DNA from: a virus
Strand: one strand, 5' to 3'
IMG/VR virus record: IMGVR_UViG_3300027839_000007
Location: 21,546 to 85,545 of that record
DNA: 64,000 bases
The position numbers and the translations under genes are program-made. The stretch's first letter is position 1. Each line of letters starts with the position of its first letter. Under the pieces are notes generated by a model. The model was not told where the DNA came from, ran no database searches, and saw only the letters and a program-made list of their open reading frames with translations. This document shows, piece after piece, positions 41,666-60,575 of this stretch.

Positions 41666-42031
41666 TTGAGTATTTTGAAGTATTTCGAGGAGCGCGGCGG
41701 AGAGTCTACTGAACATGGAGGTCCGCTGCACTGGCCCGGGACAATTGAAGGTTTTCCGTTTCGCGGGGGCGCTGTACCGGATTTCAAGGAAGACGAAATC
41801 GACAACGTTCCGTTGATGGTCGATTTTCATGTGAAGATTTTTGAGTTGTGGAAAGACGAGGATCGCGAAGCTTACGTGCAGATTCGTGACCGCGTGGCAA
41901 ATCAGTGGTACCAGGTAGTGCACATCGATCGCAAATACGACGACGAGCACAAAAACTGGCGCGTGTACATGGAGTGGCATCAGATCTATGGAGAGATTAC
42001 CGATGGCAAGGCCCCTGGTGTCCCTAAGTGA
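41666..42031 (+). CDS. Hypothetical protein
   Basis: 121 aa ORF; AGGAG RBS. Confidence 0.65.
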   Translation: MSILKYFEERGGESTEHGGPLHWPGTIEGFPFRGGAVPDFKEDEIDNVPLMVDFHVKIFELWKDEDREAYVQIRDRVANQWYQVVHIDRKYDDEHKNWRVYMEWHQIYGEITDGKAPGVPK

Positions 42032-42896
42032 GAAGCGCGCGGATACGCCGGAAGAAGTGCGCGCACAGACTATGCGCAGCCTGCTTGGTGCCAGTCTTGG
42101 TGGACTTGGAGCGGGCGTATTAGGTGGCGGGCTTTGGCATCTTATCCGTGACTACTTGCGGGGAGAGTCTCCAGAGAGACGTGCGCCTACTCTACAGTTA
42201 TCTTCACTACGTAGTGTTGCTCCTGATGCAGAAGAAGAAGACGAAGAAGAGCTGAGTGAAGAGCTGAGTGAAGCGCTGGGTCAAGAGCGTCCCGTAGAAT
42301 ATGCTAAGGCTGCTGGCTTTTTGCAGCCATACACCCCAACGTCAATGGATGATGTGACTTGGGAACCTGCAGCATACATTGCGGCAGCGGGGTTGAGCGC
42401 TGGTGCTGGGTGGGAACTTATTAGCTGGTTGCGTAAGCGTGCATTGAAAGTCAAACGTGAGCAAGAGTTGACTGCTGCACGTGAAGAATATGAGGCGGCA
42501 CTTCGTGATCAATTTGGTACGAAGGAAGGCGCGGCTACGAAATATGCGTCGCTTGATAATCTGTACGACGCGGTTAGCGTGCATCTCACGGAGAAGTCAG
42601 CTAGGGGTCGATTAACGGGGTACACTGCAACCCCTGGATCAGGCATTGCGAAGGACGTGTTGACATCAATAAAGGACGTGATCTTTAGTCCGGCAGTCTC
42701 GCGTGATTACTGGAAATATGCCGTCGTCACACCCGCGCTGCTGGCAGCGCTAGGATTTGGATATTCTGGATATGCATCACAACGTGATCGCAGTAAGGAG
42801 AAGGCGTTAACCGAAGCATTGCGTCGCCGCGAGATTGAGTTGCGTGCACGTAAGCCTGTGCCGCTTCGTGCTGTCGACGCCGCTGAGGAAGAGTAG
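42003..42896 (+). CDS. Putative virion protein with glycine-zipper helices
   Basis: EKRA, AKAA, TKYA, EKSA; three Gly/Ala-rich hydrophobic helices. Confidence 0.6.
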   Translation: MARPLVSLSEKRADTPEEVRAQTMRSLLGASLGGLGAGVLGGGLWHLIRDYLRGESPERRAPTLQLSSLRSVAPDAEEEDEEELSEELSEALGQERPVEYAKAAGFLQPYTPTSMDDVTWEPAAYIAAAGLSAGAGWELISWLRKRALKVKREQELTAAREEYEAALRDQFGTKEGAATKYASLDNLYDAVSVHLTEKSARGRLTGYTATPGSGIAKDVLTSIKDVIFSPAVSRDYWKYAVVTPALLAALGFGYSGYASQRDRSKEKALTEALRRREIELRARKPVPLRAVDAAEEE

Positions 42897-42897
42897 C

Positions 42898-45800
42898 ATG
42901 CCAAGCGTTTCCCGTGCGCCGTCTGTATTAGCTGATTTGCCTTTGATCAAATCAACGGCACTGACGCCACCTAGCGATAGGCGGAATTTTGGCGATGCAG
43001 TGGCTACGCGAAACAACATTTTTCGCAACGCGCTCGATGCCGCGCAACTGCTGGAGCCGGTAACAAACGACAAGTACACGCTGAACTTGTCCGATGTCCG
43101 TTATGAGGATCCTGACAAGCACCCACTCTCGGCGCAGAAACAGGCCGTGCTTGAGGGTAGATCCATCGGACGCCGCCTTCGCGGTACGTGGAATTTGATC
43201 GATAATCTGACCAAGAAGCCCGTGAGTACTAGCCGTACCACGCTGGCAACGATTCCGTACATGACATCACGCGGTACATTCATTAACAAGGGAAACGAGT
43301 ACACCGTTTCACACCAGATGCGCCTCAAGTCAGGTGTGTACACCAGGGAAAAGGAAAACGGCGAACTGGAAGCGCACGTTAACGTGATGCCTGGGAAAGG
43401 TGTATCTCATCGTCTCTACCTGGATCCGAAGACGGGTGTATTTCGTTTTCAGGTTGGCCAGGCACGTATCCCGTTGATCTCTGTTATGCGCGCCATGGGG
43501 GCGAAGGATAAGCAGATTCGAGATGCGTGGGGAAATGATCTGACTGCGGCGAACATGCAGAAGGCTAACCCATCAGATTTGGCCAAGCTCTACCAGCGCT
43601 TGGTGCGCGGAGGGGTTGAAGAGGGCGCATCCGCACGATCGCAGGCAGTCGCTCAAGCCATGGCACGCATGGAGCTCGACCCCAAGGTAACCAAACGTAC
43701 GCTGGGCAAAGAATTCAAGAACGTGTCATTGGATAGTATTCTGGCGACCACTCGTAAGTTGTTATCTGTGCGACATCGTAATGATGCCAAGCAGTTGGCC
43801 ACGCTGGGCCTGGAGTCGCAGGATCCCGACGATCGTGACTCTTTGGCGTATATGCGTTTGCTTGGTCCCGAGGATATTATCTCGGAGCGGATAGGCAGGT
43901 CGGCGGGACTGCTGCGGCAGCTTTTGTGGAAAGCTACTCCGCGCGGTAATGTGGACAATATTTATCCCGGTGTGTTTGACAAGGCTGTGCAGGCTGCTTT
44001 GTTGAGTAGCGGTCTCGGTAATCTCTCCGAGTCCATTAATCCGATTCAGCTGTACGAACAACAGATCCGTGTCACCAGGATGGGCGAAGGCGGTATCCCC
44101 GGAATTGATTCCATTCCGGAGACTTCCCGGAACGTGCAGTCGTCTCATTTTGGGTTCATCGACCCACTGCTTACGCCAGAGTCTGGTCGCGCAGGTGTCG
44201 ACCTCAGGCTAGCGCGTAAGACCATGAAGGGTGCTAACGGTAATATTTACACCCAGGTGCGTGCACGTACGGGCAAGCTTGTCTGGAAATCTCCCGAAGA
44301 GCTGGCGGATGCCGTGGTTGCATTCCCCGGCGAGCTACGGCGCGGCGGGCGGAATGTTGCAGCCATGACTGACGGACGAACCAGGTTTGTTCCGCGGAAG
44401 TCAGTGGAGTATGAATTACCCCACTTCGAAAATGCGATGTCAGTTCTTGCGAACATGGTCCCGATGAAATCTGCCATGAAGGGGCAGCGGGTAGCTATGG
44501 CTGCGCGAATGCTGACGCAGGCACTTCCCTTGGACAATCGTGAAGCACCCCTGGTGCAATCAGGATCTCCGGATGAAGGTGGCTCATTCGAGAACCTGTA
44601 TGGCACCAAGCTTGGCGCGCTGCGTGCACATAACTCCGGGCGCGTGACACGGGTCACCAAGGATGCATTACACGTACAGTATGCTGATGGGGAAAAAGAT
44701 CGGATCGAGTTGTACAACAACTTCCCATTCAATCGTAAGACCTATTACCACCAGACTCCGGTGGTACGGGCTGGCGACGTGTTCAAGCAGGGCGAGCTGC
44801 TGGCCCGCTCAAATTACACCAATGACCAGGGTGATGCGGCACTCGGATTGAACACCCGCGTGATGTACATCCCGTTCCGTGGTTTGAACTTTGAAGACGC
44901 CGTGGTGGTCAGTGACTCTTACGCAAAACGGTTGTCTTCCCAGCACATGTACCAGCACAAAGTAGATCTAGACAAGGACAAGGATAGGCTGGGCAAGCAG
45001 ACGTTTATCAGCTTATTCCCCAACGAGTATAAGCGAGAACGCTTGGAAGGCATTGATAAAGATGGCGTCGCAACAATCGGAAGCACAGTCGAATACGGTG
45101 ATCCCCTGGTACTTGTTACGCGAAGACAAGAGCGGACATCCAATCAGGTCCATCGTGGTCGAAGACCGACGTATAACAACGCCGCAGTCGTTTGGAAACA
45201 CCACTCACAAGGAGTCGTTACTGACATTGGACGGGCTGACGGGCGAGTAGTGGTGTCAGTCAAGACGGCAGTGCCTGCCAAGCTGGGTGATAAGTTGAGC
45301 GGGCGGTACGGTGACAAGGGTGTCATTTCAGAAGTCATTCCCGACGATGAGATGCCTCGTGATGAAGAGGGACGTCCCGCGGAGTTGCTCTTGAATCCAC
45401 TTGGAATCATCTCTCGCGGTAACCCGGCGCAGGTTATTGAAGCCGCGCTGGGTAAGATTGCCAGCAAAACCGGGAAGCCTTATAAGATCGTTGACTTCGA
45501 AGAGATCAAGGATCTCACCGAGTTCGCAATTAAAGAACTGGATCGGCATGGCATCAGCGACCTGGAGACCGTGGTCGATCCAACGAATGAGCGCCGTATT
45601 CCTGGAGTATTGTCTGGTAATCGTTTCATCATGAAACTGCACCACACAGCTGAGTCCAAGGGCCAAGGCCGGAGTATTGGCAGTTACACGATGGAAGGTA
45701 TGCCCGCGAAAGGTGGCGAAGAAGGCTCGAAGCGAATCGGAATGCTTGATCTTAACGCGTTGCTTTCTCACGGGGCTACTGAGGTCATTCGTGATGCGCA

Positions 45801-47340
45801 TATGATTCGTGGGCAACGTAACCCGCAATTCTGGTCGGCCTACATGTCCGGGTACAAGCCAGCTGCCCCGAAGGTTCCGTTTGTCTACGAGAAATTTGTT
45901 CAACAGCTTCGCGCATCTGGTGTCAATCCGGTTCGTACTGGTCATCGTGTAAACGTCATGGCTTTGACGGACAAGGACATTGACAAGTTAGCCGGTAATC
46001 GTGAGTTGGAGAATCGTGACACCGTTGATTGGAAGGAAGGGCTGAAACCGCGCAAGGGAGGCCTCTTCGATGAACGCTTGACCGGTGGGCACAGCGGATC
46101 ACGCTGGAGCTATATCAGGTTGGCAGAGCCGATGCCTAACCCTGTCATGGAAGAGCCTGCTCGCGTGGTGCTCGGATTGACCAAGCCAGCTTTCATGAAA
46201 GTCTTGCGCGGAGAGGAAGAAATCAATGGAGTCACGGGACCGCAAGCGATCGGCCGCGCGCTGGATTCGATCAACATTAAACGAGAGATTGACCGCGCGC
46301 GGGCTGACATCAAGTCAGGCCGAAAAGCAGCGCGCAACAATGCTGTTAAGAAGCTGAGTTATCTGCGTGCAGCTGAGCGCATGAAGTTGCATCCGCGTGA
46401 CTGGATGCTGACCAAGGTTCCCGTGCTTCCTCCCGCGTTTCGGCCCGTGTCACTTATGAAGGGGTCAGGTACTCCGCTGGTAGCTGATCCCAACTACCTT
46501 TATAGGGAGTTGTTTGACGCCAATGTCAACTTACAGAAGATGCAGCAGCGGGTGTCAGATGTTGGGCATGAGCGAGAATCACTGTACACCGCATTCAAGG
46601 CTGTTACTGGCCTGGGCGATCCACTGAGCGCTGAGTTACAGGACAAGAAGGTACGAGGTATACTGTCACACGTGTTTGGAAAATCTCCCAAGTACGGTGT
46701 TGTGCAAAGACGTTTGCTGGGCGCGACCACGGATATTGTCGGCAGGGCTGCCATCACACCAAACCCGAACCTGAACATGGATGAGGTGGGTTTGCCAGAA
46801 GATAAAGCGTGGGAGGTTTACCGTCCCTTTACCGTACGATATATGGTTAGACGCGGTATGCCGCGGTTGCTTGCCGCGCGTGCTGTGCAAGAAAGATCTG
46901 AGAAGGCACGGGATGCGTTGCTGGCTGTCATGAAGGATAGGCCGGTTGTGATTAATCGTGCGCCAGTTTTGCATAGGTATGGGATGATGGCCGCCTTTCC
47001 GCGTATTGTGAAAGGTGATACCATGCAAATTAGTCCCCTGGTAGTCGGCGGATTTGGCGCTGACTTCGACGGGGACACAATGCAGTACCATGTACCCGTT
47101 TCTGATGAGGCGCGCGAGGAGGCAGTGGACAAAATGCTGCCTTCGCGTAACCTTCTATCAGCGGCTGATTTCAATGTTCACTATAAGCCTTCCCAAGAGT
47201 ATGTCGGGGGGCTTCATTCTGCATCAACACGTGTTGACGACAAAACTCCATCACGTACGTTCGCAACCAAGGAAGATGCCATCCGGGCGTACCGACGTGG
47301 CGAAATCGGTGTTGGCCAGCGTGTCATGGTCCTTGAATAA
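42898..47340 (+). CDS. DNA-directed RNA polymerase, beta subunit fused to the N-terminal (catalytic) half of beta'
   Basis: Beta motifs IPYMTSRGTF, HFGFIDPLLTPES, GLNFEDAVVVS, GDKLSGRYGDKGVIS, LNPLGIISRGN, MKLHH. Beta' motifs GGLFDE, VPVLPPAFRP, RRLLG..GR, NRAPVLHR, GADFDGDTM. Confidence 0.95.
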   Translation: MPSVSRAPSVLADLPLIKSTALTPPSDRRNFGDAVATRNNIFRNALDAAQLLEPVTNDKYTLNLSDVRYEDPDKHPLSAQKQAVLEGRSIGRRLRGTWNLIDNLTKKPVSTSRTTLATIPYMTSRGTFINKGNEYTVSHQMRLKSGVYTREKENGELEAHVNVMPGKGVSHRLYLDPKTGVFRFQVGQARIPLISVMRAMGAKDKQIRDAWGNDLTAANMQKANPSDLAKLYQRLVRGGVEEGASARSQAVAQAMARMELDPKVTKRTLGKEFKNVSLDSILATTRKLLSVRHRNDAKQLATLGLESQDPDDRDSLAYMRLLGPEDIISERIGRSAGLLRQLLWKATPRGNVDNIYPGVFDKAVQAALLSSGLGNLSESINPIQLYEQQIRVTRMGEGGIPGIDSIPETSRNVQSSHFGFIDPLLTPESGRAGVDLRLARKTMKGANGNIYTQVRARTGKLVWKSPEELADAVVAFPGELRRGGRNVAAMTDGRTRFVPRKSVEYELPHFENAMSVLANMVPMKSAMKGQRVAMAARMLTQALPLDNREAPLVQSGSPDEGGSFENLYGTKLGALRAHNSGRVTRVTKDALHVQYADGEKDRIELYNNFPFNRKTYYHQTPVVRAGDVFKQGELLARSNYTNDQGDAALGLNTRVMYIPFRGLNFEDAVVVSDSYAKRLSSQHMYQHKVDLDKDKDRLGKQTFISLFPNEYKRERLEGIDKDGVATIGSTVEYGDPLVLVTRRQERTSNQVHRGRRPTYNNAAVVWKHHSQGVVTDIGRADGRVVVSVKTAVPAKLGDKLSGRYGDKGVISEVIPDDEMPRDEEGRPAELLLNPLGIISRGNPAQVIEAALGKIASKTGKPYKIVDFEEIKDLTEFAIKELDRHGISDLETVVDPTNERRIPGVLSGNRFIMKLHHTAESKGQGRSIGSYTMEGMPAKGGEEGSKRIGMLDLNALLSHGATEVIRDAHMIRGQRNPQFWSAYMSGYKPAAPKVPFVYEKFVQQLRASGVNPVRTGHRVNVMALTDKDIDKLAGNRELENRDTVDWKEGLKPRKGGLFDERLTGGHSGSRWSYIRLAEPMPNPVMEEPARVVLGLTKPAFMKVLRGEEEINGVTGPQAIGRALDSINIKREIDRARADIKSGRKAARNNAVKKLSYLRAAERMKLHPRDWMLTKVPVLPPAFRPVSLMKGSGTPLVADPNYLYRELFDANVNLQKMQQRVSDVGHERESLYTAFKAVTGLGDPLSAELQDKKVRGILSHVFGKSPKYGVVQRRLLGATTDIVGRAAITPNPNLNMDEVGLPEDKAWEVYRPFTVRYMVRRGMPRLLAARAVQERSEKARDALLAVMKDRPVVINRAPVLHRYGMMAAFPRIVKGDTMQISPLVVGGFGADFDGDTMQYHVPVSDEAREEAVDKMLPSRNLLSAADFNVHYKPSQEYVGGLHSASTRVDDKTPSRTFATKEDAIRAYRRGEIGVGQRVMVLE

Positions 47341-47354
47341 CCTGGAGTAGACAA

Positions 47355-48125
47355 ATGGGCATCAATCCCGAATTGCTTAAGCTTGCTGCGTGGCGCTTGG
47401 ACCAGGACATGGAAAAGGATGCCGTGGTTCCGGCCCCGCCCGCAGGAGGTGCTCCTCCAATGGACCCGATGGCGGCTGGCGGCGCCCCTCCTCCCATGGA
47501 TCCGGCAATGATGGGCGGCGGCGGCATGCCTCCCATGGATCCGGCAATGATGGGCGGCGGCATGCCTCCTATGGATCCGTCAATGATGGGCGGCATGCCT
47601 CCCATGGATCCGGCAATGATGGGCGGCGCTGCGCCAATTGATGCGGACCAGATTCGTTCCATTATTCAAGAAGAACTGGCAGTATCTGGCGGCAAAGGTG
47701 GTTCCGGTAGTGGCGGCGGTACCAAAAAGTTTGATCCGGAACAATTGAACCGACAACTGCACACGATGAACAAGTTTCTCTCGTCTATCGCTAATGCGCT
47801 TGGCGTAGAGCTACCGCCTGAAGCGTTGCTTGAGCCACCGCCGGGAGAAGAGCAGGACCAAGCGGCCGCGCCGGAAGCGGCTGCGCCTCCTGCTGGTGGT
47901 GGAATGCCCGGCTTGTCAGGTGATGTGTACGCCGGAGCAGTTGATCCATCAGGTGGATCAGCCATCGACCCTATTCAGCCGGTTGACCCCGCTATGCCGA
48001 AAACTGCTGGGAGCATTGTTCCTAACAACTCGGTTGGACGCCCGGTGCGTAAGATTACCCCGGAGACGCTTCTGCAAAAGACCGCAGCGATTGCTGCGAT
48101 GGCACGACAACTGAACGCACGCTAA
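47355..48125 (+). CDS. Low-complexity putative virion protein with PPMDPAMMGG repeats
   Basis: Repeats at about 47455-47628; LKLAA, EKDA, PKTA, QKTAA motifs. Confidence 0.65.
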   Translation: MGINPELLKLAAWRLDQDMEKDAVVPAPPAGGAPPMDPMAAGGAPPPMDPAMMGGGGMPPMDPAMMGGGMPPMDPSMMGGMPPMDPAMMGGAAPIDADQIRSIIQEELAVSGGKGGSGSGGGTKKFDPEQLNRQLHTMNKFLSSIANALGVELPPEALLEPPPGEEQDQAAAPEAAAPPAGGGMPGLSGDVYAGAVDPSGGSAIDPIQPVDPAMPKTAGSIVPNNSVGRPVRKITPETLLQKTAAIAAMARQLNAR

Positions 48126-48367
48126 TGCCATTACGACTGGAAATACTGGATGACAAAGGAAAGCCCCATCATATTCATGCGGGGCGTGTTGTAATATACG
48201 ATGGTATCACTGACACACCCATTTCCATTGCACACGAGTTTTCGCCAGGCATCTGTTTTGCGACATGCGCTGGTAACGAAGATTTTGAAATAACACTCAA
48301 AGCTCTTGGTGTTGATCGTACTGTGATCGTCGAGAAGATTGACCCAGATAACCTACCGAGGATTTAG
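48125..48367 (+). CDS. Hypothetical protein
   Basis: 80 aa ORF; TAATG overlap. Confidence 0.6.
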   Translation: MPLRLEILDDKGKPHHIHAGRVVIYDGITDTPISIAHEFSPGICFATCAGNEDFEITLKALGVDRTVIVEKIDPDNLPRI

Positions 48368-48446
48368 CTAGCACAGATTGACTTGGTGCGGGGCAGGGAT
48401 AGCTCAGCCGAGGAATTTCATTCCTGGTACTTACATGGAGAGTTGT

Positions 48447-49019
48447 ATGCCAAGCCGGAACGAGCCCGCGATTAGTTCGTGTTGTTTTGACCTGGAATGC
48501 AGTGCATTAACAGCCGATTTTGGGATTATCCTGGTGGCGGTCATAAAGGGACCAAATGAAGATCCAGTTGTGTTTCGTCTGGATGAGATGAACAAGGACT
48601 GGAAGACGAAGCGATCAGATGATTCCACCGTGGTACGGGCAGTTGCAGACGAGCTTTCCAAGTACGACATCTTGATTGCACATAACGGAATTAATTTTGA
48701 TTTGCCATTTTTGCGTACTCGGATGCTCCATCACGGCATGAAGTCGTTCCCTGAGAAGAAGGTGATTGATCCGGTACAGATCGCGCGTAAGCGCCTTCGA
48801 TTGTCACGTAACACTCTTGCCAAGGTGGCTGGCATTTCAAAAGCAGGAAAAAAGTACTACACCGACGCTGAAGTGTGGATCAAAGCCACGCTCGACGGTG
48901 ACAGGAAATCAATGGACGAAATCGTAGAACATTGCAAGCAGGACGTGATTTTGCTTGAGCGTATTGTGCATCACATAAAGGACTACAGTCCTACCTTTAA
49001 TGCGTGGGGATCAGCCTGA
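48447..49019 (+). CDS. RNase H-fold 3'-5' exonuclease (DEDD, YprB/PolB-exo-like)
   Basis: FDLEC (ExoI), HNGINFDLPFL (ExoII), HCKQDV (ExoIII). Confidence 0.85.
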   Translation: MPSRNEPAISSCCFDLECSALTADFGIILVAVIKGPNEDPVVFRLDEMNKDWKTKRSDDSTVVRAVADELSKYDILIAHNGINFDLPFLRTRMLHHGMKSFPEKKVIDPVQIARKRLRLSRNTLAKVAGISKAGKKYYTDAEVWIKATLDGDRKSMDEIVEHCKQDVILLERIVHHIKDYSPTFNAWGSA

Positions 49020-50968
49020 TGGCGCCACATATCAATTGGAAGTTGTTCGGCACCGCAGCCGAAAATGTTGAGAAGCAGGCTGCTGGTATGGCTGACATGT
49101 TTTCCAGTGCAATTAAGGGTACGGGTGCGGCGATGGGGGCGCCTGCCAGGCCCAGCGTGCAATCAAAGCTGGGTGTTCCAAGAGTTGCCGCACTTGATAT
49201 TGATAACACCCCTCCCCCACCTTCAGTCAAACCGATTGTTGTACCGCCTTCGACCGCACGCGTATCTGACCCCGTAGACCCCACCAGTCAACAGGGCCGT
49301 GTTTTAAGTTCACCTAGCCCTACATCCCCTGCAGCTCCTGCAGCTCAACCAGCACCTGGTGGTGGGCAGTTTCCGCCCGGCGGCGGGATTACAGGGCCTA
49401 CTTCGCAAAGCTTCATTGAGACCCTCAACCGGCCTCTGACACATAGCGAAGCTGACGGGCCAAACGCGTACGATGGGAGCCCTGAAGGAAATTCTATGGC
49501 CGCTGCCCAGGGCCTTGATCCCAGCAAACCGCCGATGGTCGGCCCGCAGGGCCTTCCGGGGCCAGTTCCTGGTGGCCCTGGCACCACTCCGGTTAATCCT
49601 GGTGTCCCCGCGCCAGCAGCACCTGGTGGCGGTGCAGCGCCCGCGGCTCCTGGTGGTGGCTATATCCCTGGCGACAACCCCCTCCCGAACAAGACTCCCG
49701 CACCACCTCCGGCTCCTGCTGAACCTCCTCCGGGCGTATCTCCTGAACAGGCCAAAACTGGCCCGGACGGGGTGGAGGGTACGTCCGACGATGACTTCTG
49801 GAAGAAGCAAAAATCGTGGTGGTCCGAGAGACCGCAGAGACCAAAAGCACCACAATCGCAGCAAGGCGGCGGATTCGGCCCCCAGATTATGCAGTACATT
49901 CGGAGTATGTTCGGCCCCGGCGGTGGCGGTGGCGGTGGTGGCGGTAGACTGCCGCAGTATCCGGGCGCATGGCCTGGCATGACGATGCCGCAGTGGCCAG
50001 GTGGCGGCGGTGGTGGTTGGCCAGGTGGCGGCGGTGGTGGTTGGCCGCAACAGCAACAGCAACAGCAACAGCCGTGGAACGCCAGCCGTGAAGATATTGA
50101 AGCGTGGATGAAGAATATGCCAACGCGCGGAGGCGGCGCTCCAGCTGCTCCAGCTGCGCAAGCTGCTCCGTCTAATGCACCGGGTGCTACTGCACCAGCT
50201 CCTCCAACACCCCCGGCGGCATCTCTGGCACCTGCTGCGACCACGTCGATGGCTGAGACGATGGGCGTGCAGCAGCCACCTAGTGGACGACAACCGTCAG
50301 GAACTCGGGTTCCAGGCGCCCCGGAAGGTCCGGAAGGTGGACGGATGGAAGATATGCCGAAACCCGTTGAGCCGGAAGGTTTTGGATTCCGGAGTGAAGG
50401 ACAGCCGCCTCCGGAAGCTCCGGGTCCTCTTGATCCAGGTGGCGAGCAGCAGCCACCGTTACAACCAGCCGCTGGCGGTGAGATGTTCGATGAAGGGTCC
50501 GAGGAGCTAGCACAAAATCCTCCGGGTTCCGCGGGCCCCGAGCAGATGCCAGCCAAACCAAAGCAATCTCCTTACTTCTATCAGAACCCACCTCGGACGA
50601 GCGGCATGGACCGTTTCTCCGAGGATACGGAAAGAGAAGAAGAGTACGGGCCGGGTTTCCCACGAGAAGTCTCAGACTCTTACAAGGACCAGGAGACTCC
50701 GGCATCTCCGCCAGCACCTCCCAAGCCCCGAGATCTTCCTAGGGATCAAGCGCAGTCTGGCGACCTAGGCGCAGCGATGAGGGAAATGGGTGAATCGCCG
50801 GACTCTCGTGAAAAACCACAAGGTGGTAGGGGTGGTCGCACGACCATGGACTACCGGCCCGATGAAGACGCGGGTGGTCGCCAAGAGCTCGGCGCTGATC
50901 CGAATCAGTGGAACGAGCAGCAATGGATGGATGATCTTCGAAAGGATCAGAAACGGAATCCTCTATAG
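49019..50968 (+). CDS. Pro/Gly-rich disordered putative virion protein
   Basis: EKQAA near the N-terminus; WPGGGGGG and polyQ tracts. Confidence 0.6.
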   Translation: MAPHINWKLFGTAAENVEKQAAGMADMFSSAIKGTGAAMGAPARPSVQSKLGVPRVAALDIDNTPPPPSVKPIVVPPSTARVSDPVDPTSQQGRVLSSPSPTSPAAPAAQPAPGGGQFPPGGGITGPTSQSFIETLNRPLTHSEADGPNAYDGSPEGNSMAAAQGLDPSKPPMVGPQGLPGPVPGGPGTTPVNPGVPAPAAPGGGAAPAAPGGGYIPGDNPLPNKTPAPPPAPAEPPPGVSPEQAKTGPDGVEGTSDDDFWKKQKSWWSERPQRPKAPQSQQGGGFGPQIMQYIRSMFGPGGGGGGGGGRLPQYPGAWPGMTMPQWPGGGGGGWPGGGGGGWPQQQQQQQQPWNASREDIEAWMKNMPTRGGGAPAAPAAQAAPSNAPGATAPAPPTPPAASLAPAATTSMAETMGVQQPPSGRQPSGTRVPGAPEGPEGGRMEDMPKPVEPEGFGFRSEGQPPPEAPGPLDPGGEQQPPLQPAAGGEMFDEGSEELAQNPPGSAGPEQMPAKPKQSPYFYQNPPRTSGMDRFSEDTEREEEYGPGFPREVSDSYKDQETPASPPAPPKPRDLPRDQAQSGDLGAAMREMGESPDSREKPQGGRGGRTTMDYRPDEDAGGRQELGADPNQWNEQQWMDDLRKDQKRNPL

Positions 50969-50979
50969 GTTAAGCACGG

Positions 50980-52833
50980 ATGCTTCAAACTACAGCCGGA
51001 CAACTTCTGGTAAACGAATTACTGCCTGAGGATCTCCGTGATTACAACCGGACCTTGGACAAGAAGGGTATCTCCGTACTTCTGCGCGGGATGGCTGACG
51101 GGTACCCGCAGCGTTATCGGGAACTTGTGAAAGAGCTGTCTGACGTTGGACGCGACGTGGCTTACTCAACTGGTGGCTTTTCATTTGGGTTGAAGCACCT
51201 GCGAAAGTCGCGCGCGGCTATCAACGCTTACGGTAAGTTATCGCTCAAGTTGTCGCAGATAGTTGATGATCCGCGACTGGACGATAAGCGCAAGGAAGAG
51301 GAAATTATTAAGGCAACTGCGAAGGCTGCGGAAAAGTTACCCGATGAGATTTACAACGAGGGTGTTGCAGCAGGTAATCCCTTGGCAGACCAGGTCCGGT
51401 CCGGTTCACGCGGTAACAAGAGTAACCTGCGCACACTGCTCGGCAGCGACGCGCTTTATGTGGACAACGAAGATAACGTCATCCCTGTACCTGTCCTCCG
51501 TAGTTATTCAGAAGGTTTGACTCCTGTAGAGTATTGGGCCGGTACGTTTGGCGCGCGTAAAGGAGTCATTGACGTTAAAACAGCAACCGGCGAAGCCGGT
51601 TACCTGGCGAAACAGCTTAACCAGATGACACACCGGCTCATCGTTACTGGATTGGATGGCAAAGGGAATCCAAACATCGGACTCCCAGTGGACGTTGACG
51701 ATAATGACAACGAGGGCGCGCTACTGGCCGCCAGCGCGGGTAGGTACAAACGTAACACCATCCTGACCCCCAAGATTCTTGCAGACATCAAGAGCCAGGG
51801 TCACGATCGCATCCTGGTTAGGAGTCCGCTGGTTGGCGGCCCCCTGGACGGCGGAGTATATGCTCGTGATGTCGGTGTTAGGGAAAGAGGTGGACTTGCC
51901 CCTGTTGGTGATTATGTCGGTATGGCTGCTGCACAGGCACTTTCCGAAAACCTTACGCAGGGGCAGCTCAGCTCTAAACATACAGGCGGGGTATCCGGCG
52001 CAGCGCAGGCAGTCAGCGGGTTCAAATACATCAATCAACTCGTGCAGGTTCCCAAGCATTTCCGCGCAGGAGCTACGCACGCCCAGTTAGATGGAAGAGT
52101 ACGGAAGATAGAAAAAGCGCCGCAGGGAGGGAATTACGTTTGGGTTAATGATGAGCAGCATTACGTGGATACTGGATTCGACGTTACGGTTAAAGTTGGG
52201 GACAACGTGGAAGCGGGCGACGTAGTGTCGAGTGGCATTCCCAACCCAGCGGAAATTGTGCGACATAAGGGCGTGGGAGAGGGCAGACAGTATTTCGTTA
52301 AGTCATTCGGCGACGCATATTCGGCGTCGGGGCTGGGGGCACACCGACGCAATATTGAGTTACTTGCACGAGGGCTGATTAATCACGTGCGCTTGTCAGA
52401 TGAAGTGGGGGATTACGTCCCTGACGATGTTGTGCCTTACAGTTCCTTGGAGCACATCTACAAGCCGCGTGTTGGGTCAAAGATCAGCAATCCAAGTTCA
52501 GCCAAGGGGCGCTATCTTGAGCGGCCCGTACTGCATTACTCAATTGGTACCAAGATGCGTCCGAGTGTATTGAAGGAGCTAAAGCAATTTGGGATAAAGC
52601 AGGTCGAGACGCATCACGCACCAGCCCCATTCCAGCCTGAGATGGTTAGAGCAGCTGCGAGCATTTCCTACGATCCTGACTGGATGACACGGATGCTGGG
52701 CTCAGGTCAGAAGAAAAGTTTGCTGACAGCGGTGCATCGTGGTGGGACTAGCACTACCGAGGGCACCAGTTTTGTTCCGGCGCTGGCTGCCGGGGATACT
52801 TTTGGACGTAGTGGTTTAAGTAAGGGTATGTAA
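50980..52833 (+). CDS. DNA-directed RNA polymerase, C-terminal half of beta'
   Basis: TTAGQ, SGSRG, SYSEGLT..EY..GARKG..GYL (bridge helix), AAQALSE..TQ..KHTGG (trigger loop), NIELLARGL. Confidence 0.92.
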   Translation: MLQTTAGQLLVNELLPEDLRDYNRTLDKKGISVLLRGMADGYPQRYRELVKELSDVGRDVAYSTGGFSFGLKHLRKSRAAINAYGKLSLKLSQIVDDPRLDDKRKEEEIIKATAKAAEKLPDEIYNEGVAAGNPLADQVRSGSRGNKSNLRTLLGSDALYVDNEDNVIPVPVLRSYSEGLTPVEYWAGTFGARKGVIDVKTATGEAGYLAKQLNQMTHRLIVTGLDGKGNPNIGLPVDVDDNDNEGALLAASAGRYKRNTILTPKILADIKSQGHDRILVRSPLVGGPLDGGVYARDVGVRERGGLAPVGDYVGMAAAQALSENLTQGQLSSKHTGGVSGAAQAVSGFKYINQLVQVPKHFRAGATHAQLDGRVRKIEKAPQGGNYVWVNDEQHYVDTGFDVTVKVGDNVEAGDVVSSGIPNPAEIVRHKGVGEGRQYFVKSFGDAYSASGLGAHRRNIELLARGLINHVRLSDEVGDYVPDDVVPYSSLEHIYKPRVGSKISNPSSAKGRYLERPVLHYSIGTKMRPSVLKELKQFGIKQVETHHAPAPFQPEMVRAAASISYDPDWMTRMLGSGQKKSLLTAVHRGGTSTTEGTSFVPALAAGDTFGRSGLSKGM

Positions 52834-52835
52834 GT

Positions 52836-53294
52836 ATGTCACCCGCATCTTCACCTCCGGCTGTGCAACCGCCTGGGGCAACCGTTGCAGAAAACGCTCG
52901 TCCTAGCCAAGCTGTGCTGTCTACCGCTCCTTCTTCTTCATACAACGAACCAGGCTCACCGTCATCGATTTACAAGAATATTAACCCTCAACTGCTTCAG
53001 CAGCTTTACTCAACTTGGCAGCGCAGCCAGGGTAGTAATGCGCTACCGCGTGCCGATTCTGGTGTGCGGCCTGGCGGAGCTCCCGGCGCACCCCCCACGT
53101 TCAACCGGCTGGTCCCACGCAACAGCAATAACTTCTTCAAGCGGATACTTCCAATGCTTCCGCAGCTGATTCCGAAAGTTATGAACATGTACAAAGCAAT
53201 ACGTACGGACCCTGGAATGTTGAAGAAGTACCCCCAACTTGCTAACGCACCGAGCGCAAACTTGGCTAATCCCCCCGCTCCGAGCACACCGTAG
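52836..53294 (+). CDS. Pro-rich hypothetical protein
   Basis: 152 aa ORF abutting the upstream gene. Confidence 0.55.
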   Translation: MSPASSPPAVQPPGATVAENARPSQAVLSTAPSSSYNEPGSPSSIYKNINPQLLQQLYSTWQRSQGSNALPRADSGVRPGGAPGAPPTFNRLVPRNSNNFFKRILPMLPQLIPKVMNMYKAIRTDPGMLKKYPQLANAPSANLANPPAPSTP

Positions 53295-53400: not shown

Positions 53401-55776
53401 ATGGCCAGGTCAGACGAAGGATCGATCGCCCACTGGCTGAATATTCTGCGTAGCAAGCAACTCGGTTTGGCTAAGACCGCCGAACTCGGTGGTGAAGGTA
53501 ACGACATACCCTTCGAGCAGGCTTTCTCTAACCTCGCGCATGCTTACCTGCGGGATAAGGCACCCAGCTTGCTGGACTACGAAGTTGGTTTTCAGCTGCT
53601 GGAGCGTAACCAGGACAACACCAAGGCCATTGGTGTGATGGCCTTCAAAGTCGGTCCCCAGTGGATTTATTCTCCAGTGTTCTTCCTGCGCGGGGAACTC
53701 AAGGGACACGAACTCCTGTACATGAAAGACAGGGATATGTTCGTGCCTCTGAAAGAGAACTGGTTGAATTACATCCTCAACAAGAAACCGAACGTGCTTG
53801 GTGACGGAGTTGATCGCAACTTGTCGCAGCTGGGTGTTACGTCGCCTGACCTGAGCCAGCTCGCATCCTCTCCGTACAAGCGCGCTGCTGCTTATCCAGA
53901 CTGGGTTGAGCAGGTGCTTCCTGTGTTTGCGTACATTGCGACGACGCCGCACAATCATCAGAGCAAGTTCAAAAATCTTCCTACGCTGCCTGACATGATC
54001 AAGGCGGCTGGCTTGCCTGGTGTGCAGTTCATGTGGAGTGTCGCCAAATCCTACCCCTCGGTGTTTAAGGCCGCGATTGATCTGCACGGCAATGCATTAC
54101 AAGAAGCCGTTGCACACGTACGGCGTGACGATGCAAGTGTTTTGCGCGGATCCGTAAAGACAGCCAGTTCCAAGCAGACTAGCGGCTCAGTGTTGCCCAG
54201 CCCGGTCACGCATCCAATTAAAACCGGCGCCTTGCGAATCATCACGTTTGATTACACTATCCAGAATGATTTACCCGCCGTCGATGACGATGACGATAAG
54301 CAGGACCTGCTCCGTGATGGCGTACTAATTAAAGACCAGCGGGAAGATGATGAAGTCTCTGTTGCTTATGCCACGAATGTAGAGAAGAAGCTGAGTAACC
54401 CATCTGAGAGCGGTCTTCACGACATGCTTTCCAAGACCGGCGACATTGAACGTTGCCTGGTTGTGCTTGGCCCCCGCGGCCCTAATGGTCGTGAGAACTT
54501 CAGTACCGTTGTACGCGTTGGCGAGGGTAAGAGCTGGTTGAACATTCATCCATCACATGTCTGGTCATTACACCAGGCTGACTGGGACGAGTATCGTAAA
54601 TGGTTTGAAGGTTTGTCTGGTTCTGACAGCTTGTCAAATGGTGCGACATACATTATTGTCGGCCCAAATGCTGCAGCCACGCTTCCGTTTGAAGTTAAGA
54701 AGTCCCTCGGCGACAGTAATTACGAGGTCAGGTTCGAGCGACATGCTAACAAGCATGAACCAGCACATAACACGGGCGCGCGACCGGACTCCAGTTATCA
54801 AAGTGACCGCGCGCATGGATATGATTCCTGGCGCGACGGGCAGCGTGTGCATCTGAATGCGAAGGATGGTAGCAAGCTGCGTTCATCTGGCGGTGATGTC
54901 TGGATCCCCGAGGGATTCAAGGTTATCAAGCTGAAGGATCCCCCGAAGTGGAAGCAGGATTTGCCCGACCACGAACACGACGGGCAGACTGATCCCGCGC
55001 CCATCCAACCCGGTAACTTGCTTGATGCCGAGCTGGCTATCATGGGTAAGACTGCTGAACTCAGCATCTATACTGATGGACTGGAAGTAGAGATCAACGG
55101 CAGGCGCATGCAGCCCACGCAGGCGCTCATTTCACTGGTGCGTGATCACGGTTTTCGTGAGCAGCAGTCACGTGAGTTGCTCAAGCGCGCGGAACGGCAG
55201 ACCAAGATCCGGTGCCGGGTGAACTATGCTGATTACGTGAAAAAGGCACAGGATCCTATGCTGGGCTTTGGTCCCGGCGCGCCTACCATCCCGGAACCGC
55301 CGCGAGGTTCCAACGATATCATGGGCGGAACTGTTCCGGCTATCTATCCACAAGAAACAGAAACGCCGGTTACCGGGATGACGATGGGGTCACCTACTGA
55401 TTATGACCTCACGGCTACCCCTGATCCGATGGCTATGCAGGCTGCTCAACAGGCTGCGCAGACTGGTCAGAAGGAAGTCTTTGATACTGCCATCATTGGC
55501 GGCATGCTCAAGGCAGTTCGACAGGATACGATGGTTGATCGTTATCTGTCTGACCTGATGAAGGGCATGGACCGTGTTGGTCGTATCTTGTTTATGTTCT
55601 ACTGGCACCAGGATGATTTTTCTGACCGTTACGGCAAGTCTGACCTACCTGAACTGGAAGACAGTTTGCGTAATTCGTTTGAAGCTCTGGGAGACCTTGT
55701 GCTATTCCTGAAGCAGAAGAGTATTGAAGCACCGGAAGATACTGGTGTGGATCTTTCAGAGGTAGCAGATAGCTAA
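53401..55776 (+). CDS. Putative virion structural protein (791 aa)
   Basis: Long ORF in the head module; AKTA, YKRA, VKTAS, GKTA, VKKA motifs. Confidence 0.65.
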   Translation: MARSDEGSIAHWLNILRSKQLGLAKTAELGGEGNDIPFEQAFSNLAHAYLRDKAPSLLDYEVGFQLLERNQDNTKAIGVMAFKVGPQWIYSPVFFLRGELKGHELLYMKDRDMFVPLKENWLNYILNKKPNVLGDGVDRNLSQLGVTSPDLSQLASSPYKRAAAYPDWVEQVLPVFAYIATTPHNHQSKFKNLPTLPDMIKAAGLPGVQFMWSVAKSYPSVFKAAIDLHGNALQEAVAHVRRDDASVLRGSVKTASSKQTSGSVLPSPVTHPIKTGALRIITFDYTIQNDLPAVDDDDDKQDLLRDGVLIKDQREDDEVSVAYATNVEKKLSNPSESGLHDMLSKTGDIERCLVVLGPRGPNGRENFSTVVRVGEGKSWLNIHPSHVWSLHQADWDEYRKWFEGLSGSDSLSNGATYIIVGPNAAATLPFEVKKSLGDSNYEVRFERHANKHEPAHNTGARPDSSYQSDRAHGYDSWRDGQRVHLNAKDGSKLRSSGGDVWIPEGFKVIKLKDPPKWKQDLPDHEHDGQTDPAPIQPGNLLDAELAIMGKTAELSIYTDGLEVEINGRRMQPTQALISLVRDHGFREQQSRELLKRAERQTKIRCRVNYADYVKKAQDPMLGFGPGAPTIPEPPRGSNDIMGGTVPAIYPQETETPVTGMTMGSPTDYDLTATPDPMAMQAAQQAAQTGQKEVFDTAIIGGMLKAVRQDTMVDRYLSDLMKGMDRVGRILFMFYWHQDDFSDRYGKSDLPELEDSLRNSFEALGDLVLFLKQKSIEAPEDTGVDLSEVADS

Positions 55777-58556: not shown

Positions 58557-60575
58557 ATGTCATCGCGCATTCCTAGCGACCTATTGTTGGCTTCGCCTGA
58601 AGAGGCTGCGGACAAGCTGGCCACGTACATGGTGCTGAGTCGCCAGGCTGGCGGGTTCACGAAGTCGGCTGCCCCGTGGTATGAGGATGTAGGAAACTCG
58701 GTCTCTGATTTTTGGGCTAAGAACGTTGCCGGTCCTGCACAAAGCTTCGGAGAAACTGCAGGTGGCACTTTTTCAGAGTATTGGGACAAGTACGTTGACA
58801 GTATTACCGGTGGAGGCGGACCTGCTGCACAGACACTGGCATTGGCGGGAACCGGTGCTGGTATAGGCGGCATCTATGGGTTGGTTAGTGAGCTAGCCCG
58901 TAATAAAAAAGAACGCCGGTGGGAAAACCCGTTGCTGTATGCTGGTTTGGGTGGCGCTATCGGCGGCGGAGCTGGCCTGGCATACCACAATATTCCTGGT
59001 TTGAGGGATACTGTCGATGAAACTGTTAATTCCTTACGAGGGGAGAAGCGGCCGCCACCTTCTGAGGTAGACGTAGCAACTGCGGTAAGCACACCAGAGG
59101 CGCACCGGACCCCGGAACAGCAACGCATCGTGAATGATGTTGACGAAGCGAAGACGACGGCTAACCAGGAGCTCGCTCGTGGAGTAGCGACTCTTGGAAC
59201 TGATCCTAACGCGAGTGTTGCTGTACTAGTGGCGGCGCTGACGGGGGAGCCGTCGCCAGAGGCCCTCCAAAACTCCCCGTACCTCAGCGCGATCGCAGGC
59301 ACCGGGGCCGGTATCGCCGTCTCCAAGGCTGTAACCAGTGCGCGAGGACTACGTCAACTCACCGGCGAGCCTGGCAAACCGAGCATGGCGGATAGAGCAT
59401 TTGGCGGTGTACCTTCTGTCGAGATTCTGCAAAGGTACCTGGGTAGCTCGGGCGGGATTAATCTAGATGACGCTACGGTCATTAAAATTCAGAATGAGTT
59501 GCGTGACTACGCCAACTCGTGGGCTGGTAGAACTAGGGGACGGCTGCCGCGGCCAGCTGGGGGCATGCCGACGGTGTGGCATCATCCAGAGTCGGGGAAT
59601 GTGACGTTGGATAAACCCAGCAGAGCCGACCGCGCCGCGCGTGATGTGAAGCCGTGGCGGCTGGAGTCTGGTGGCTTTGTTCCCGGGCAACAAAAGATAC
59701 ATGACCCGGGTAGTATCGCCCCGCAGCTCGTCGAAGCTTATAAATTGGAGAAGAAAGTCGCCGAAGAATTGGCGGCAGCCATTAAAGCGACCGGAGCGGA
59801 GAGAAAAGACGCACTAGAACTGTTATTGAAAAGTCCTAAGTTACAAAATAGCGGTACCCGTATTCAGCTTAGTCTTGAGATGCATCCTGATACCGGTAAC
59901 TGGACTATTGCTGCCCCCGGGCATGAAGCCGTAGCGCGCCTGGCTGGCGAGGACGCGCCGCCGCGCGTGCCAATTAGTGCGCCTGCGGCTGGTGTTTTAG
60001 AGGAAGCGGCTAGCCCTGAATCTATTATGCGTGCGTTTGGTATTAACGCTGATCCAGCTGGCAAAATTCACACAGCGTTGACGTTCGCAAACAGCCAAAT
60101 GGCAAAACCCGGCGTTGCGACGAGCCCAGCTGAAGTAGCTCAAGTCCGCGCTGACCTCAACAAGAGCCTTGCCGGAAGTCAAAGTAGTCGACGTTTCCCC
60201 TTGGAGGCGCAGCTTAGTGATGGCCGGTGGACAATCGTTGAGACCATAAAGCCAGTTTTGAAACTGCGCAATCCGTTCGGCGGCCGGTTTGGTGTGCAAT
60301 TGCCATTCCACCTCGGTGCGCCAAGCTCGCGCCCATACCATACAATACGCGGGTCGCGCTTGCAGCGGGCTCCCGGGGCGCGGGTGATGCCGCACGTACT
60401 GCCAGCTGTAGGCGGCATTTGGGGAGGTTATCACGCAGCCGATCGAGCACGCCACCGAGCCGCCGAGCGTGCGGCGATACGAGCAGTCGGCGGCGGGGGT
60501 GGAGGTAACGACATCTGGGATAAGATCATCGAGCTTGGCCGCGAGGCTGACAAACCGAGGCAGAGGGGGCAATAA
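58557..60575 (+). CDS. Putative virion protein with glycine-zipper helices
   Basis: TKSAA; GTGAGIGGIYG, AGLGGAIGGGAG. Confidence 0.6.
   Translation: MSSRIPSDLLLASPEEAADKLATYMVLSRQAGGFTKSAAPWYEDVGNSVSDFWAKNVAGPAQSFGETAGGTFSEYWDKYVDSITGGGGPAAQTLALAGTGAGIGGIYGLVSELARNKKERRWENPLLYAGLGGAIGGGAGLAYHNIPGLRDTVDETVNSLRGEKRPPPSEVDVATAVSTPEAHRTPEQQRIVNDVDEAKTTANQELARGVATLGTDPNASVAVLVAALTGEPSPEALQNSPYLSAIAGTGAGIAVSKAVTSARGLRQLTGEPGKPSMADRAFGGVPSVEILQRYLGSSGGINLDDATVIKIQNELRDYANSWAGRTRGRLPRPAGGMPTVWHHPESGNVTLDKPSRADRAARDVKPWRLESGGFVPGQQKIHDPGSIAPQLVEAYKLEKKVAEELAAAIKATGAERKDALELLLKSPKLQNSGTRIQLSLEMHPDTGNWTIAAPGHEAVARLAGEDAPPRVPISAPAAGVLEEAASPESIMRAFGINADPAGKIHTALTFANSQMAKPGVATSPAEVAQVRADLNKSLAGSQSSRRFPLEAQLSDGRWTIVETIKPVLKLRNPFGGRFGVQLPFHLGAPSSRPYHTIRGSRLQRAPGARVMPHVLPAVGGIWGGYHAADRARHRAAERAAIRAVGGGGGGNDIWDKIIELGREADKPRQRGQ

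What the first reader, a model, noticed from the sequence alone, without database searches (positions are those of the whole stretch)
42898..52833. Phage RNA polymerase with re-partitioned subunits: beta fused to beta'-N, separate beta'-C
Seen: one polypeptide of about 1480 aa runs through a compact beta and continues without a stop into beta' up to just past DFDGD. The bridge helix and trigger loop half is a separate 617-aa gene 3.6 kb downstream, beginning at the TTxG motif. No alpha, omega or sigma gene and no ribosomal-protein neighbours are present. Established: cellular beta-beta' fusions (Helicobacter) and beta' splits (cyanobacteria, archaea) are known separately, and phiKZ-type RNAPs are split differently and are far more diverged. 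Inference: a distinct, probably virion-packaged RNAP, given that it is embedded among K-x-A genes. Both catalytic barrels would be on one chain.
Basis: partly seen in the sequence, partly recalled or inferred. Interest (0 to 1): 0.78.

Follow-up and report, generated by a model that had tools for sequence, protein, structure and literature searches.

The report
Fused-and-split two-chain phage RNA polymerase
An uncultured marine phage of roughly 200 kb encodes a bacterial-type RNA polymerase as two proteins, all of beta joined to the front of beta-prime plus the back of beta-prime alone, a real layout shared by a large phage family that includes cultured Salmonella phage Arash.

Summary
ORF 42898-47340 (1480 aa) carries a complete compact beta, then beta' from its N-terminus to about 85 residues past GADFDGD. 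ORF 50980-52833 (617 aa) starts at the TTxG motif and carries the bridge helix and trigger loop.

It is not an assembly error. Contigs of other studies cover the junction without a difference. All 61 related IMG/VR loci read through the junction, and all 150 best beta'-C representatives start at the split.

It is not cellular. In two trees the phage enzymes form one long-branched group apart from 30 bacteria.

It is not unique. Salmonella phage Arash (gp206 + gp216) and Vibrio phages D69/D148/D181 have the same layout. In Arash both chains and a sigma factor were found in purified particles.

Long relatives have one polymerase set and a sigma-like gene. The five complete ones tested have no alpha or omega. 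This contig is a 42% fragment, and no sigma gene was found on it.

The enzyme lacks both beta' zinc sites and every cysteine.

Seven searches found no paper describing the layout. This scan had already reported it on other genomes. Virion packaging here is inferred only.

The parts
42898..47340 (+). Gene for the fused chain (1480 aa, no cysteine): complete compact beta followed by beta' from its N-terminus to about 85 residues past the catalytic loop
42898..45933 (+). Beta module (about residues 1-1012). It aligns to Salmonella RpoB 150-1376 of 1380. Two stretches are much shorter than in Salmonella: annotated residues 265-458 and 971-1087, which I recall as lineage-specific insertions SI1 and SI2
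   Evidence: Pfam Rpb2_6 and Rpb2_3
45931..46002 (+). Fusion junction. About 22 residues lie between the last beta-like and the first beta'-like aligned positions, with no stop and no frame change
   Evidence: identical contigs of other studies span it; 61 of 61 related loci read through it in one alignment
45937..47340 (+). Beta'-N module (about residues 1014-1480). The zinc-binding domain is deleted. The clamp helices and the barrel are present
47056..47076 (+). Catalytic loop GADFDGD (residues 1387-1393). The three aspartates are kept; G stands where cellular enzymes have N
47355..50968 (+). Four intervening ORFs that are not polymerase parts: 256 aa of no family; 80 aa; 213 aa DnaQ/RNase_H_2-like exonuclease (48378-49019); 654 aa rich in Pro, Gly and Gln (49004-50968). 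The 256-, 213- and 654-aa ORFs have no counterpart in the 61 related loci
50980..52833 (+). Gene for the beta'-C chain (617 aa, no cysteine). It starts at TTxG and holds the bridge helix and the trigger loop. It lacks the stretch matching Salmonella RpoC 952-1180 (recalled as SI3). The second zinc site is replaced by G, G, Y, D
53401..55776 (+). Conserved downstream neighbour (791 aa, no family found). Its role is unknown and it is not shown to be a polymerase part
   Evidence: found after beta'-C in 49 of 61 loci; no Pfam, PHROG or Atlas lead

Best explanation
These two genes encode the whole catalytic core of a bacterial-type RNA polymerase of a roughly 200-kb marine tailed phage. The phage belongs to the same large family as Salmonella phage Arash.

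Shown here:
- Chain 1 is beta joined head-to-tail to beta'-N, so both barrels and the Mg-binding aspartates sit on one chain.
- Chain 2 supplies the bridge helix and the trigger loop.
- The layout is inherited. It is older than the split between Arash/D69 and the metagenomic clade.
- Complete relatives have a single polymerase set, no alpha, no omega, and a sigma-70-like gene.
- The first beta' zinc site is deleted in the whole family. The second is lost in the crown group that holds this window.

Inferred:
- The two chains assemble like beta and beta'.
- The covalent beta-beta'N link stands in for the missing alpha-dimer assembly platform.
- The phage's own sigma (a homologue of Arash gp10) directs the enzyme to phage promoters.
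- As in Arash particles, enzyme and sigma are carried in the virion to start early transcription without the host polymerase.
For: Domain content and order.

The junction is real. Contigs from three other studies are identical over 45838-47400, 45858-46049 and 45341-45949, with no gaps. 61 of 61 IMG/VR loci have one alignment across residues 1000-1030. 41 uninterrupted ORFs are 1456-1501 aa long.

The split is conserved. Beta'-C lies on the same strand 899-6669 bases downstream in 57 of 61 loci; the other 4 loci end within 1960 bases. 150 of 150 best 50%-identity representatives begin at the split.

Cultured relatives have the same layout: Arash gp206 (1525 aa) + gp216 (606 aa), and D69 (1527 + 609 aa).

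Phage context: the portal and one structural gene are homologous to Arash gp204 and gp222.

Trees: 16 phage rows form one side of a branch against 30 bacteria, with SH-aLRT 100 under both LG+G4 and LG+C20 PMSF.

Other subunits: one Rpb2_6 match in each of 5 complete relatives, 0 of 5 with alpha and 0 of 5 with omega, with controls positive in 14 of 14 genomes. A sigma-like family is present in 8 of 8 long relatives, with Sigma70_r3 above Pfam's cut-off in 3 of the 5 family members scanned (Arash gp10 included).

Arash particle proteome, read as passages of PMC10585845: Gp206 3516 spectra (the most of any protein), Gp216 1210, sigma Gp10 467.
Against: - No sigma gene is on this contig, so sigma dependence here is by analogy.
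- The Arash particle preparation also held ribonucleotide reductases and ligases. Its authors say abundant infection proteins may have carried over, so packaging is not proven even there. Arash is only about 31% and 25% identical to the two chains.
- No activity, assembly or expression data exist for this enzyme. The one RNA-library contig touches only 47126-47400 and may be DNA.
- The last roughly 120 residues of beta'-C did not align to RpoC.
- The beta' N-terminal alignment at the junction is weak on its own (E 0.23). The junction piece alone found nothing relevant in the PDB.
- The trees carry long-branch and composition warnings and have no archaeal outgroup.
Confidence: 0.8

Rival explanations
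1. The same two-chain polymerase, but not packaged. It is made after infection for middle or late genes, while host polymerase (perhaps with a phage sigma) reads early genes.
For: The Arash authors note that abundant enzymes may contaminate purified particles, and many metabolic enzymes were in their list. Nothing in this window shows packaging.
Against: Gp206 had the most spectra of any Arash particle protein, and Gp216 and sigma Gp10 were abundant too. The polymerase genes sit among genes homologous to Arash virion genes: portal, gp222. Relatives have only one polymerase set.
Confidence: 0.3
2. The fusion, the split or both are assembly or frame errors in a metagenomic contig.
For: The record is an uncultured IMG/VR fragment.
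Against: Identical independent contigs cover the junction and the stop codon. 61 of 61 loci and two groups of cultured phages share the junction. 150 of 150 representatives start at the split.
Confidence: 0.01
3. A cellular rpoB-rpoC, either recently captured from a host or lying on a bacterial contig.
For: Sequence similarity to bacterial beta and beta' is clear.
Against: A portal gene and conserved phage synteny surround it. Identity to bacteria in the best-conserved barrel is at most 45%, against 48-61% within the metagenomic clade. None of 80 bacterial loci has a beta plus beta'-N ORF. The phage rows are separated from 30 bacteria by a long branch.
Confidence: 0.02
4. A member of the published mReC lineage (Weinheimer and Aylward 2020), hence already described as a clade.
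For: mReC are IMG/VR tailed-phage contigs with deep-branching beta and beta', some over 200 kb. 12 of 44 family members have NADFDGD and could pass that study's filter. Three related loci come from metagenomes numbered close to the one that gave mReC1 and mReC3.
Against: This window has GADFDGD, which fails the NADxDGD filter. The Pfam families reported for mReC, Gp23 capsid and Terminase_6N, matched 0 of 5 complete relatives; the capsid search had no positive control. The paper's text applies 'fused' and 'fusion' only to crAssphage.
Confidence: 0.35

Closest known systems
RNA polymerase of Salmonella phage Arash (gp206 + gp216, with sigma gp10; OQ632216, PMC10585845) and of Vibrio phages D69/D148/D181
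   Same: Identical layout: beta plus beta'-N on one chain of about 1525 aa, and a separate beta'-C of about 606 aa starting at the same motif. They form one group with this window in both trees. The first zinc site is deleted. The portal and one structural gene are homologous.
   Different: Identity is only 31% and 25%. Arash and D69 keep the four cysteines of the second zinc site and have AADYDGD. In Arash the portal lies next to the polymerase gene, here 36 kb away. Here three genes unique to this contig lie between the two chains. The Arash paper calls the proteins beta and beta' and does not mention the fusion.
phiKZ/AR9-type jumbo-phage multisubunit polymerases (review PMC7598289)
   Same: Phage-encoded, related to bacterial beta and beta', no alpha or omega, beta' split after the barrel, and a virion-borne form exists.
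   Different: Those phages have two sets, beta split into 2-3 chains, no sigma, and much greater divergence. Here relatives have one set, beta is whole and fused, and sigma is present.
Full beta-beta' fusions of Helicobacter and Wolbachia (recalled, not tested here)
   Same: Head-to-tail join of the beta C-terminus to the beta' N-terminus with almost no linker, as expected from adjacent rpoB-rpoC genes.
   Different: The cellular fusions keep beta' whole and keep alpha, omega and zinc sites. Here beta' is cut after the barrel. No fused form was among the 80 bacterial loci kept by the scan.
Cyanobacterial, plastid and Melainabacteria split of beta' (gamma + beta')
   Same: The split is in the same inter-domain region after the catalytic barrel.
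   Different: The site is not the same. Here it lies before TTxG (RpoC 552/569). In the Gastranaerophilales locus L119 it lies about 20 residues after TTxG (RpoC about 588).
mReC phages (PMC7481178)
   Same: Uncultured tailed phages with beta and beta' that branch outside cellular clades.
   Different: Membership cannot be told (see rival explanations). No fused or split layout is described in the paper's text.

Membership tests
Two-barrel bacterial-type RNA polymerase core | Beta barrel domain (Rpb2_6) and beta' barrel with the Asp triad | tested here: met
   Pfam E 8e-48 and 4e-24. GADFDGD at residues 1387-1393.
Two-barrel bacterial-type RNA polymerase core | Bridge helix and trigger loop region (Rpb1_5) | tested here: met
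   Pfam E 6e-21 on the 617-aa chain. It aligns to RpoC 572-952 and 1180-1286.
Two-barrel bacterial-type RNA polymerase core | Alpha dimer and omega subunits | tested here: not met
   RNA_pol_L matched 0 of 5 complete relatives and not this record. Rpb6 matched 0 of 5 relatives. Controls were positive in 14 of 14 genomes. Omega was not searched on this record.
Two-barrel bacterial-type RNA polymerase core | Two beta' zinc sites | tested here: not met
   Site 1 columns are gaps. Site 2 reads G, G, Y, D. Neither chain has a cysteine.
Arash-like fused-and-split phage polymerase | Beta and beta'-N on one chain, beta'-C separate and starting at TTxG | tested here: met
Arash-like fused-and-split phage polymerase | Groups with Arash and D69 apart from bacteria | tested here: met
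   16 phage rows on one side of a branch, SH-aLRT 100 in two models.
Arash-like fused-and-split phage polymerase | gp10-like sigma factor in the genome | tested here: inconclusive
   Absent from this 42% fragment. Present in 8 of 8 long relatives.
Arash-like fused-and-split phage polymerase | Both chains present in virions | not testable with these tools
   Known only from Arash mass spectrometry.
mReC (Weinheimer and Aylward 2020) | NADxDGD motif required by the study's filter | tested here: not met
   This window has GADFDGD. 12 of 44 family members have NADFDGD.
mReC (Weinheimer and Aylward 2020) | Gp23-type capsid (PF07068) and Terminase_6N (PF03237) | tested here: inconclusive
   0 of 5 complete relatives matched either family. 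The PF07068 search had no positive control.
phiKZ/AR9-type phage polymerases | Two polymerase sets, beta split, no sigma | tested here: not met
   One Rpb2_6 match per complete relative. Beta is whole. Sigma-like genes are present.
Cyanobacterial-type beta' split | Split at the gamma/beta' site | tested here: not met
   RpoC 552/569 here against about 588 in L119.

The most novel reading that the evidence does not exclude
The family's enzyme is a minimal sigma-dependent RNA polymerase of only two chains, with no assembly platform, no zinc and no cysteine. It is packed into the capsid with its sigma and is ejected through the tail to start infection. On this reading the beta-beta'N tether replaces alpha. 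The cut after the barrel, together with the loss of zinc sites and cysteines, is an adaptation to being stored, threaded and refolded. That would make it the smallest cell-like RNA polymerase that still uses sigma, with a cultured model (Arash) at hand.
Probability: 0.3. Interest if true: 0.75.

Novelty: new variant of a known kind. Interest (0 to 1): 0.55.

Why it matters
Cellular RNA polymerases need an alpha dimer to bring beta and beta' together, and they keep two zinc sites. This family does without both yet stays close enough to bacterial enzymes (26-31% identity) to be modelled on them, and it appears to keep sigma. It offers a natural minimal system for asking three questions: what the assembly platform and zinc sites are for, how subunit boundaries move in evolution, and how a large enzyme travels inside a virus particle. 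A cultured member, Arash on Salmonella, makes those questions testable now. The family is abundant in seawater, lakes and sediments, yet its polymerase layout appears unreported in the papers I could search.

Tried and rejected
- The junction piece alone (140 aa) against PDB sequences gave only two chance hits. The family profile was needed to place it.
- PHROGs and Pfam on 20 and 10 neighbouring ORFs gave almost nothing: an exonuclease, a weak protease-like hit, and three PHROGs of unknown function.
- The ESM Atlas gave no lead for the 791-aa neighbour.
- Foldseek on the junction model returned beta' chains only and printed no residue ranges. It supports the beta' N-terminal fold but not the geometry of the join. 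The model's mean pLDDT is 66.8, with 79-94 only over about fragment residues 141-320 (blocks of ten; two blocks in that span read 59 and 74).
- RNA evidence: three metatranscriptome runs held 6-10% of the sampled words. The one I laid (X18) covers 47126-47400 only, so expression is not shown.
- Run X12 left 46105-46365 uncovered, which says nothing either way.
- mReC membership could not be settled, because the paper's supplementary contig lists are closed.
- I did not run complex prediction. Halves of a split textbook enzyme would pass by likeness to solved structures, and a pass would not change my odds.
- I did not test the K-x-A motif idea.
- Literature. Seven full-text searches found no description of a beta plus beta'-N fusion with a separate beta'-C in phages. 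Passages read in PMC7481178, PMC10585845, PMC7598289, PMC7824862, PMC13282480, PMC9123017 and PMC13076723 did not describe it either. Subscription journals and supplements were not searched.
Full report
WHAT IS THERE

The window is bases 21546-85545 of an 85,545-base IMG/VR virus record that CheckV rates 42% complete. ORF 42898-47340 (+) gives 1480 residues without a stop. A longer reading from TTG at 42835 is possible, but the ATG at 42898 follows the upstream gene's stop by one base.

Pfam places the beta barrel (Rpb2_6) at residues 581-932 and the beta' barrel (Rpb1_2) at 1277-1411 of this one chain. Weaker Rpb2_3 and Rpb1_1 matches fall below their cut-offs. Against PDB sequences, beta chains match residues 60-1041 and beta' chains match 1098-1478.

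ORF 50980-52833 (+) gives 617 residues beginning MLQTTAGQ. It has Rpb1_5 at 179-473 and matches the second half of beta' chains.

ANATOMY

I built profiles from 44 fused proteins and 54 beta'-C proteins and laid them on Salmonella RpoB and RpoC.

The fused profile covers RpoB 150-1376 of 1380 as annotated. That ORF starts 38 codons before the usual E. coli numbering. Two Salmonella stretches, 265-458 and 971-1087, are largely missing. I recall these as the proteobacterial insertions SI1 and SI2.

About 22 positions after the last beta-like column the profile picks up RpoC at residue 36. That stretch is weak by itself (E 0.23), though its GGLFD motif is invariant in the family. The profile then covers RpoC 161-550 firmly.

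RpoC 62-160 holds the four cysteines of the first zinc site. It shrinks to about 34 positions, and those cysteine columns are gaps in every phage row.

Beta'-C covers RpoC 572-952 and 1180-1286. The stretch between, recalled as SI3, is absent. The last roughly 120 residues did not align.

The catalytic loop reads GADFDGD. Neither chain has a single cysteine, whereas 44 ORFs of this record average 0.70% cysteine.

A fold of residues 860-1300 had mean pLDDT 66.8, with 79-94 around and after the junction. Foldseek matched it to beta' chains.

IS IT AN ARTEFACT?

No.
- The stretch occurs near-identically in 20 listed marine and seawater runs of 16 studies.
- Contigs from three studies not flagged as the possible source cover the junction without a gap. 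One contig spans 45838-47400 with no difference. Three DNA runs and the one RNA-library contig cover the stop codon.
- 61 of 61 related IMG/VR loci have a single alignment across residues 1000-1030.
- 57 of the 61 show beta'-C on the same strand, 899-6669 bases downstream (median 1066). The other four loci end within 1960 bases of the fused gene.
- Of the 120 best clusters in the big protein collection, 110 are 1442-1504 aa long. Ten are 1802-2161 aa, and several of those carry intein or homing-endonuclease domains.
- All 150 best 50%-identity representatives of beta'-C (E below 1e-189) begin at the split.

IS IT CELLULAR?

No. The record has a portal gene (5129-7021) and a structural gene (60576-62024) homologous to Arash gp204 and gp222. 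The genes around the polymerase genes are conserved across the phage loci.

A scan of 185,579 species' genomes for the catalytic-loop pattern kept 80 bacterial loci with at most 45% identity in the barrel. None of them has an ORF carrying both beta and beta'-N.

I built trees from 46 rows and about 2000 columns. The rows were the window, 13 IMG/VR relatives, Arash, D69, and 30 bacteria of more than ten phyla. All 16 phage rows fall on one side of a branch with SH-aLRT 100, under LG+G4 and under the LG+C20 mixture model. Arash plus D69 is sister to the metagenomic clade.

The tools warn of long branches and odd composition, and I had no outgroup. 'Deep-branching' could therefore also mean fast-evolving.

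WHAT IS KNOWN

Arash (180.8 kb, a myovirus on Salmonella Typhimurium) has gp206 (1525 aa) and gp216 (606 aa). Vibrio phage D69 has proteins of 1527 and 609 aa. In D181 and D148 the fused gene is interrupted by a homing endonuclease.

The Arash paper (PMC10585845, passages read) labels the two proteins beta and beta' and does not mention a fusion. It reports Gp206 as the protein with the most spectra in purified particles (3516), Gp216 at 1210 and sigma Gp10 at 467. It also cautions that abundant enzymes may have carried over.

The mReC paper (PMC7481178) describes deep-branching phage beta and beta'. It required NADxDGD, which this window lacks. It reported Gp23-type capsids and Terminase_6N, which 0 of 5 complete relatives matched; the capsid search had no positive control. 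Whether the family overlaps mReC cannot be told without the supplements.

Seven searches found no paper describing this layout (listed under Tried and rejected). This scan had already reported the same layout on at least seven other genomes, with the same closest relative. I re-derived those points here independently.

HOW IT PROBABLY WORKS

Five complete relatives (204-229 kb) each have one Rpb2_6 match, no alpha and no omega. A family of 250-280-aa proteins is present in 8 of 8 long relatives. These proteins have Sigma70_r3 and weak r4 matches and are homologous to Arash gp10. None is on this fragment.

The likeliest picture is a two-chain core that assembles like beta and beta', with the covalent tether standing in for the alpha platform, and that is directed by the phage's own sigma. 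Packaging into the virion is plausible from Arash but is not shown here.

DETAILS THAT ADD TO EARLIER NOTES

1. The split lies before TTxG (RpoC 552/569). The cyanobacterial-type split, seen in a Gastranaerophilales genome, lies about 20 residues after TTxG. The two splits look independent.
2. The second zinc site (C814, C888, C895, C898) is kept in Arash, D69 and the basal locus L047 and lost in the crown group. Its loss therefore came after the fusion and the split.
3. This contig is unusual in having 3.6 kb between the two genes. Three of the four ORFs in that gap (256, 213 and 654 aa) have no counterpart in any of the 61 related loci.

VERDICT

The feature is real and is a family trait, not a peculiarity of this phage. 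It is a new variant of phage multisubunit polymerases that appears undescribed in print but is present in public records and in a cultured phage. Interest is moderate to high for transcription specialists. It is lowered because the family is already deposited in public records and was found repeatedly by this scan.

Noticed in passing
L036-L039, L042, L045, L054-L059, L065, L067, L068 (related IMG/VR loci): In 15 of 61 relatives the fused gene is broken into 2-6 alignment pieces by insertions of 0.8-2.3 kb (one locus, L042, shows only a frame change with no inserted stretch). They recur near query residues 367-380, 429, 615-652, 801-837 and 944. Beta'-C is interrupted in 4 loci, near residues 210 and 284-331. 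Longer homologues carry intein and LAGLIDADG domains (PF14890, PF14528). The polymerase genes look like hot spots for selfish elements.
   Followed up: partly
window 52836-53294; proteins P0123-P0272: 134 of the 150 best beta'-C representatives are over 900 aa. Some contain insertions like those in the item above. The three I read that have a long tail (P0123, P0125, P0126; two short ones were also read) carry a low-complexity C-terminal tail rich in Pro, Gln and Ala. Here a 152-aa ORF rich in Pro, Ser and Ala starts 3 bases after the beta'-C stop, in another frame. The link between the tails and this ORF is not established.
   Followed up: partly
window 48378-49019: A DnaQ/RNase_H_2-like 3'-5' exonuclease ORF (213 aa; Pfam E 5e-13) sits between the two polymerase genes. 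It has no counterpart in the 61 related loci.
   Followed up: no
window 49004-50968: A 654-aa ORF rich in Pro, Gly and Gln, with poly-G and poly-Q runs, ends just upstream of beta'-C. It has no cysteine and no relatives in the related loci.
   Followed up: no
window 53401-55776: A 791-aa protein follows beta'-C in 49 of 61 loci. It has no Pfam, PHROG or Atlas lead. It may be a polymerase-linked or virion protein.
   Followed up: partly
window 12391-60575, several ORFs: Many large ORFs have no cysteine at all: 12391-14241, 15525-19961, 27831-29741, 29728-31566, 31670-32650, 33377-34702, 41988-42896, 47355-48125, 49004-50968 and 58557-60575. The record's average is 0.70%. Lack of cysteine may mark a class of proteins, perhaps the packaged ones.
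   Followed up: no
L119 (Candidatus Gastranaerophilales MAG): This non-photosynthetic relative of cyanobacteria has the gamma/beta' type split of rpoC, as ORFs of 570 and 1282 aa.
   Followed up: partly
L084, L112, L155 (bacterial MAG loci): Three MAG contigs group in the polymerase tree with phyla other than their labels: 'Hyphomicrobiales' with Ignavibacteria, 'Alistipes' with Bacillota, and 'Gammaproteobacteria' with Patescibacteria. This is probably mis-binning.
   Followed up: no
hits H5-H16 and H20-H23 of the 'phages' collection: Several records filed as phages are bacterial contigs with ordinary rpoB-rpoC. H5 and H6 bear Salmonella names; I opened only H5. Judged only from their host-like names and the way they match, others look likely to be the same (Staphylococcus, Listeria, Enterococcus and Acinetobacter 'phage' names).
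   Followed up: no
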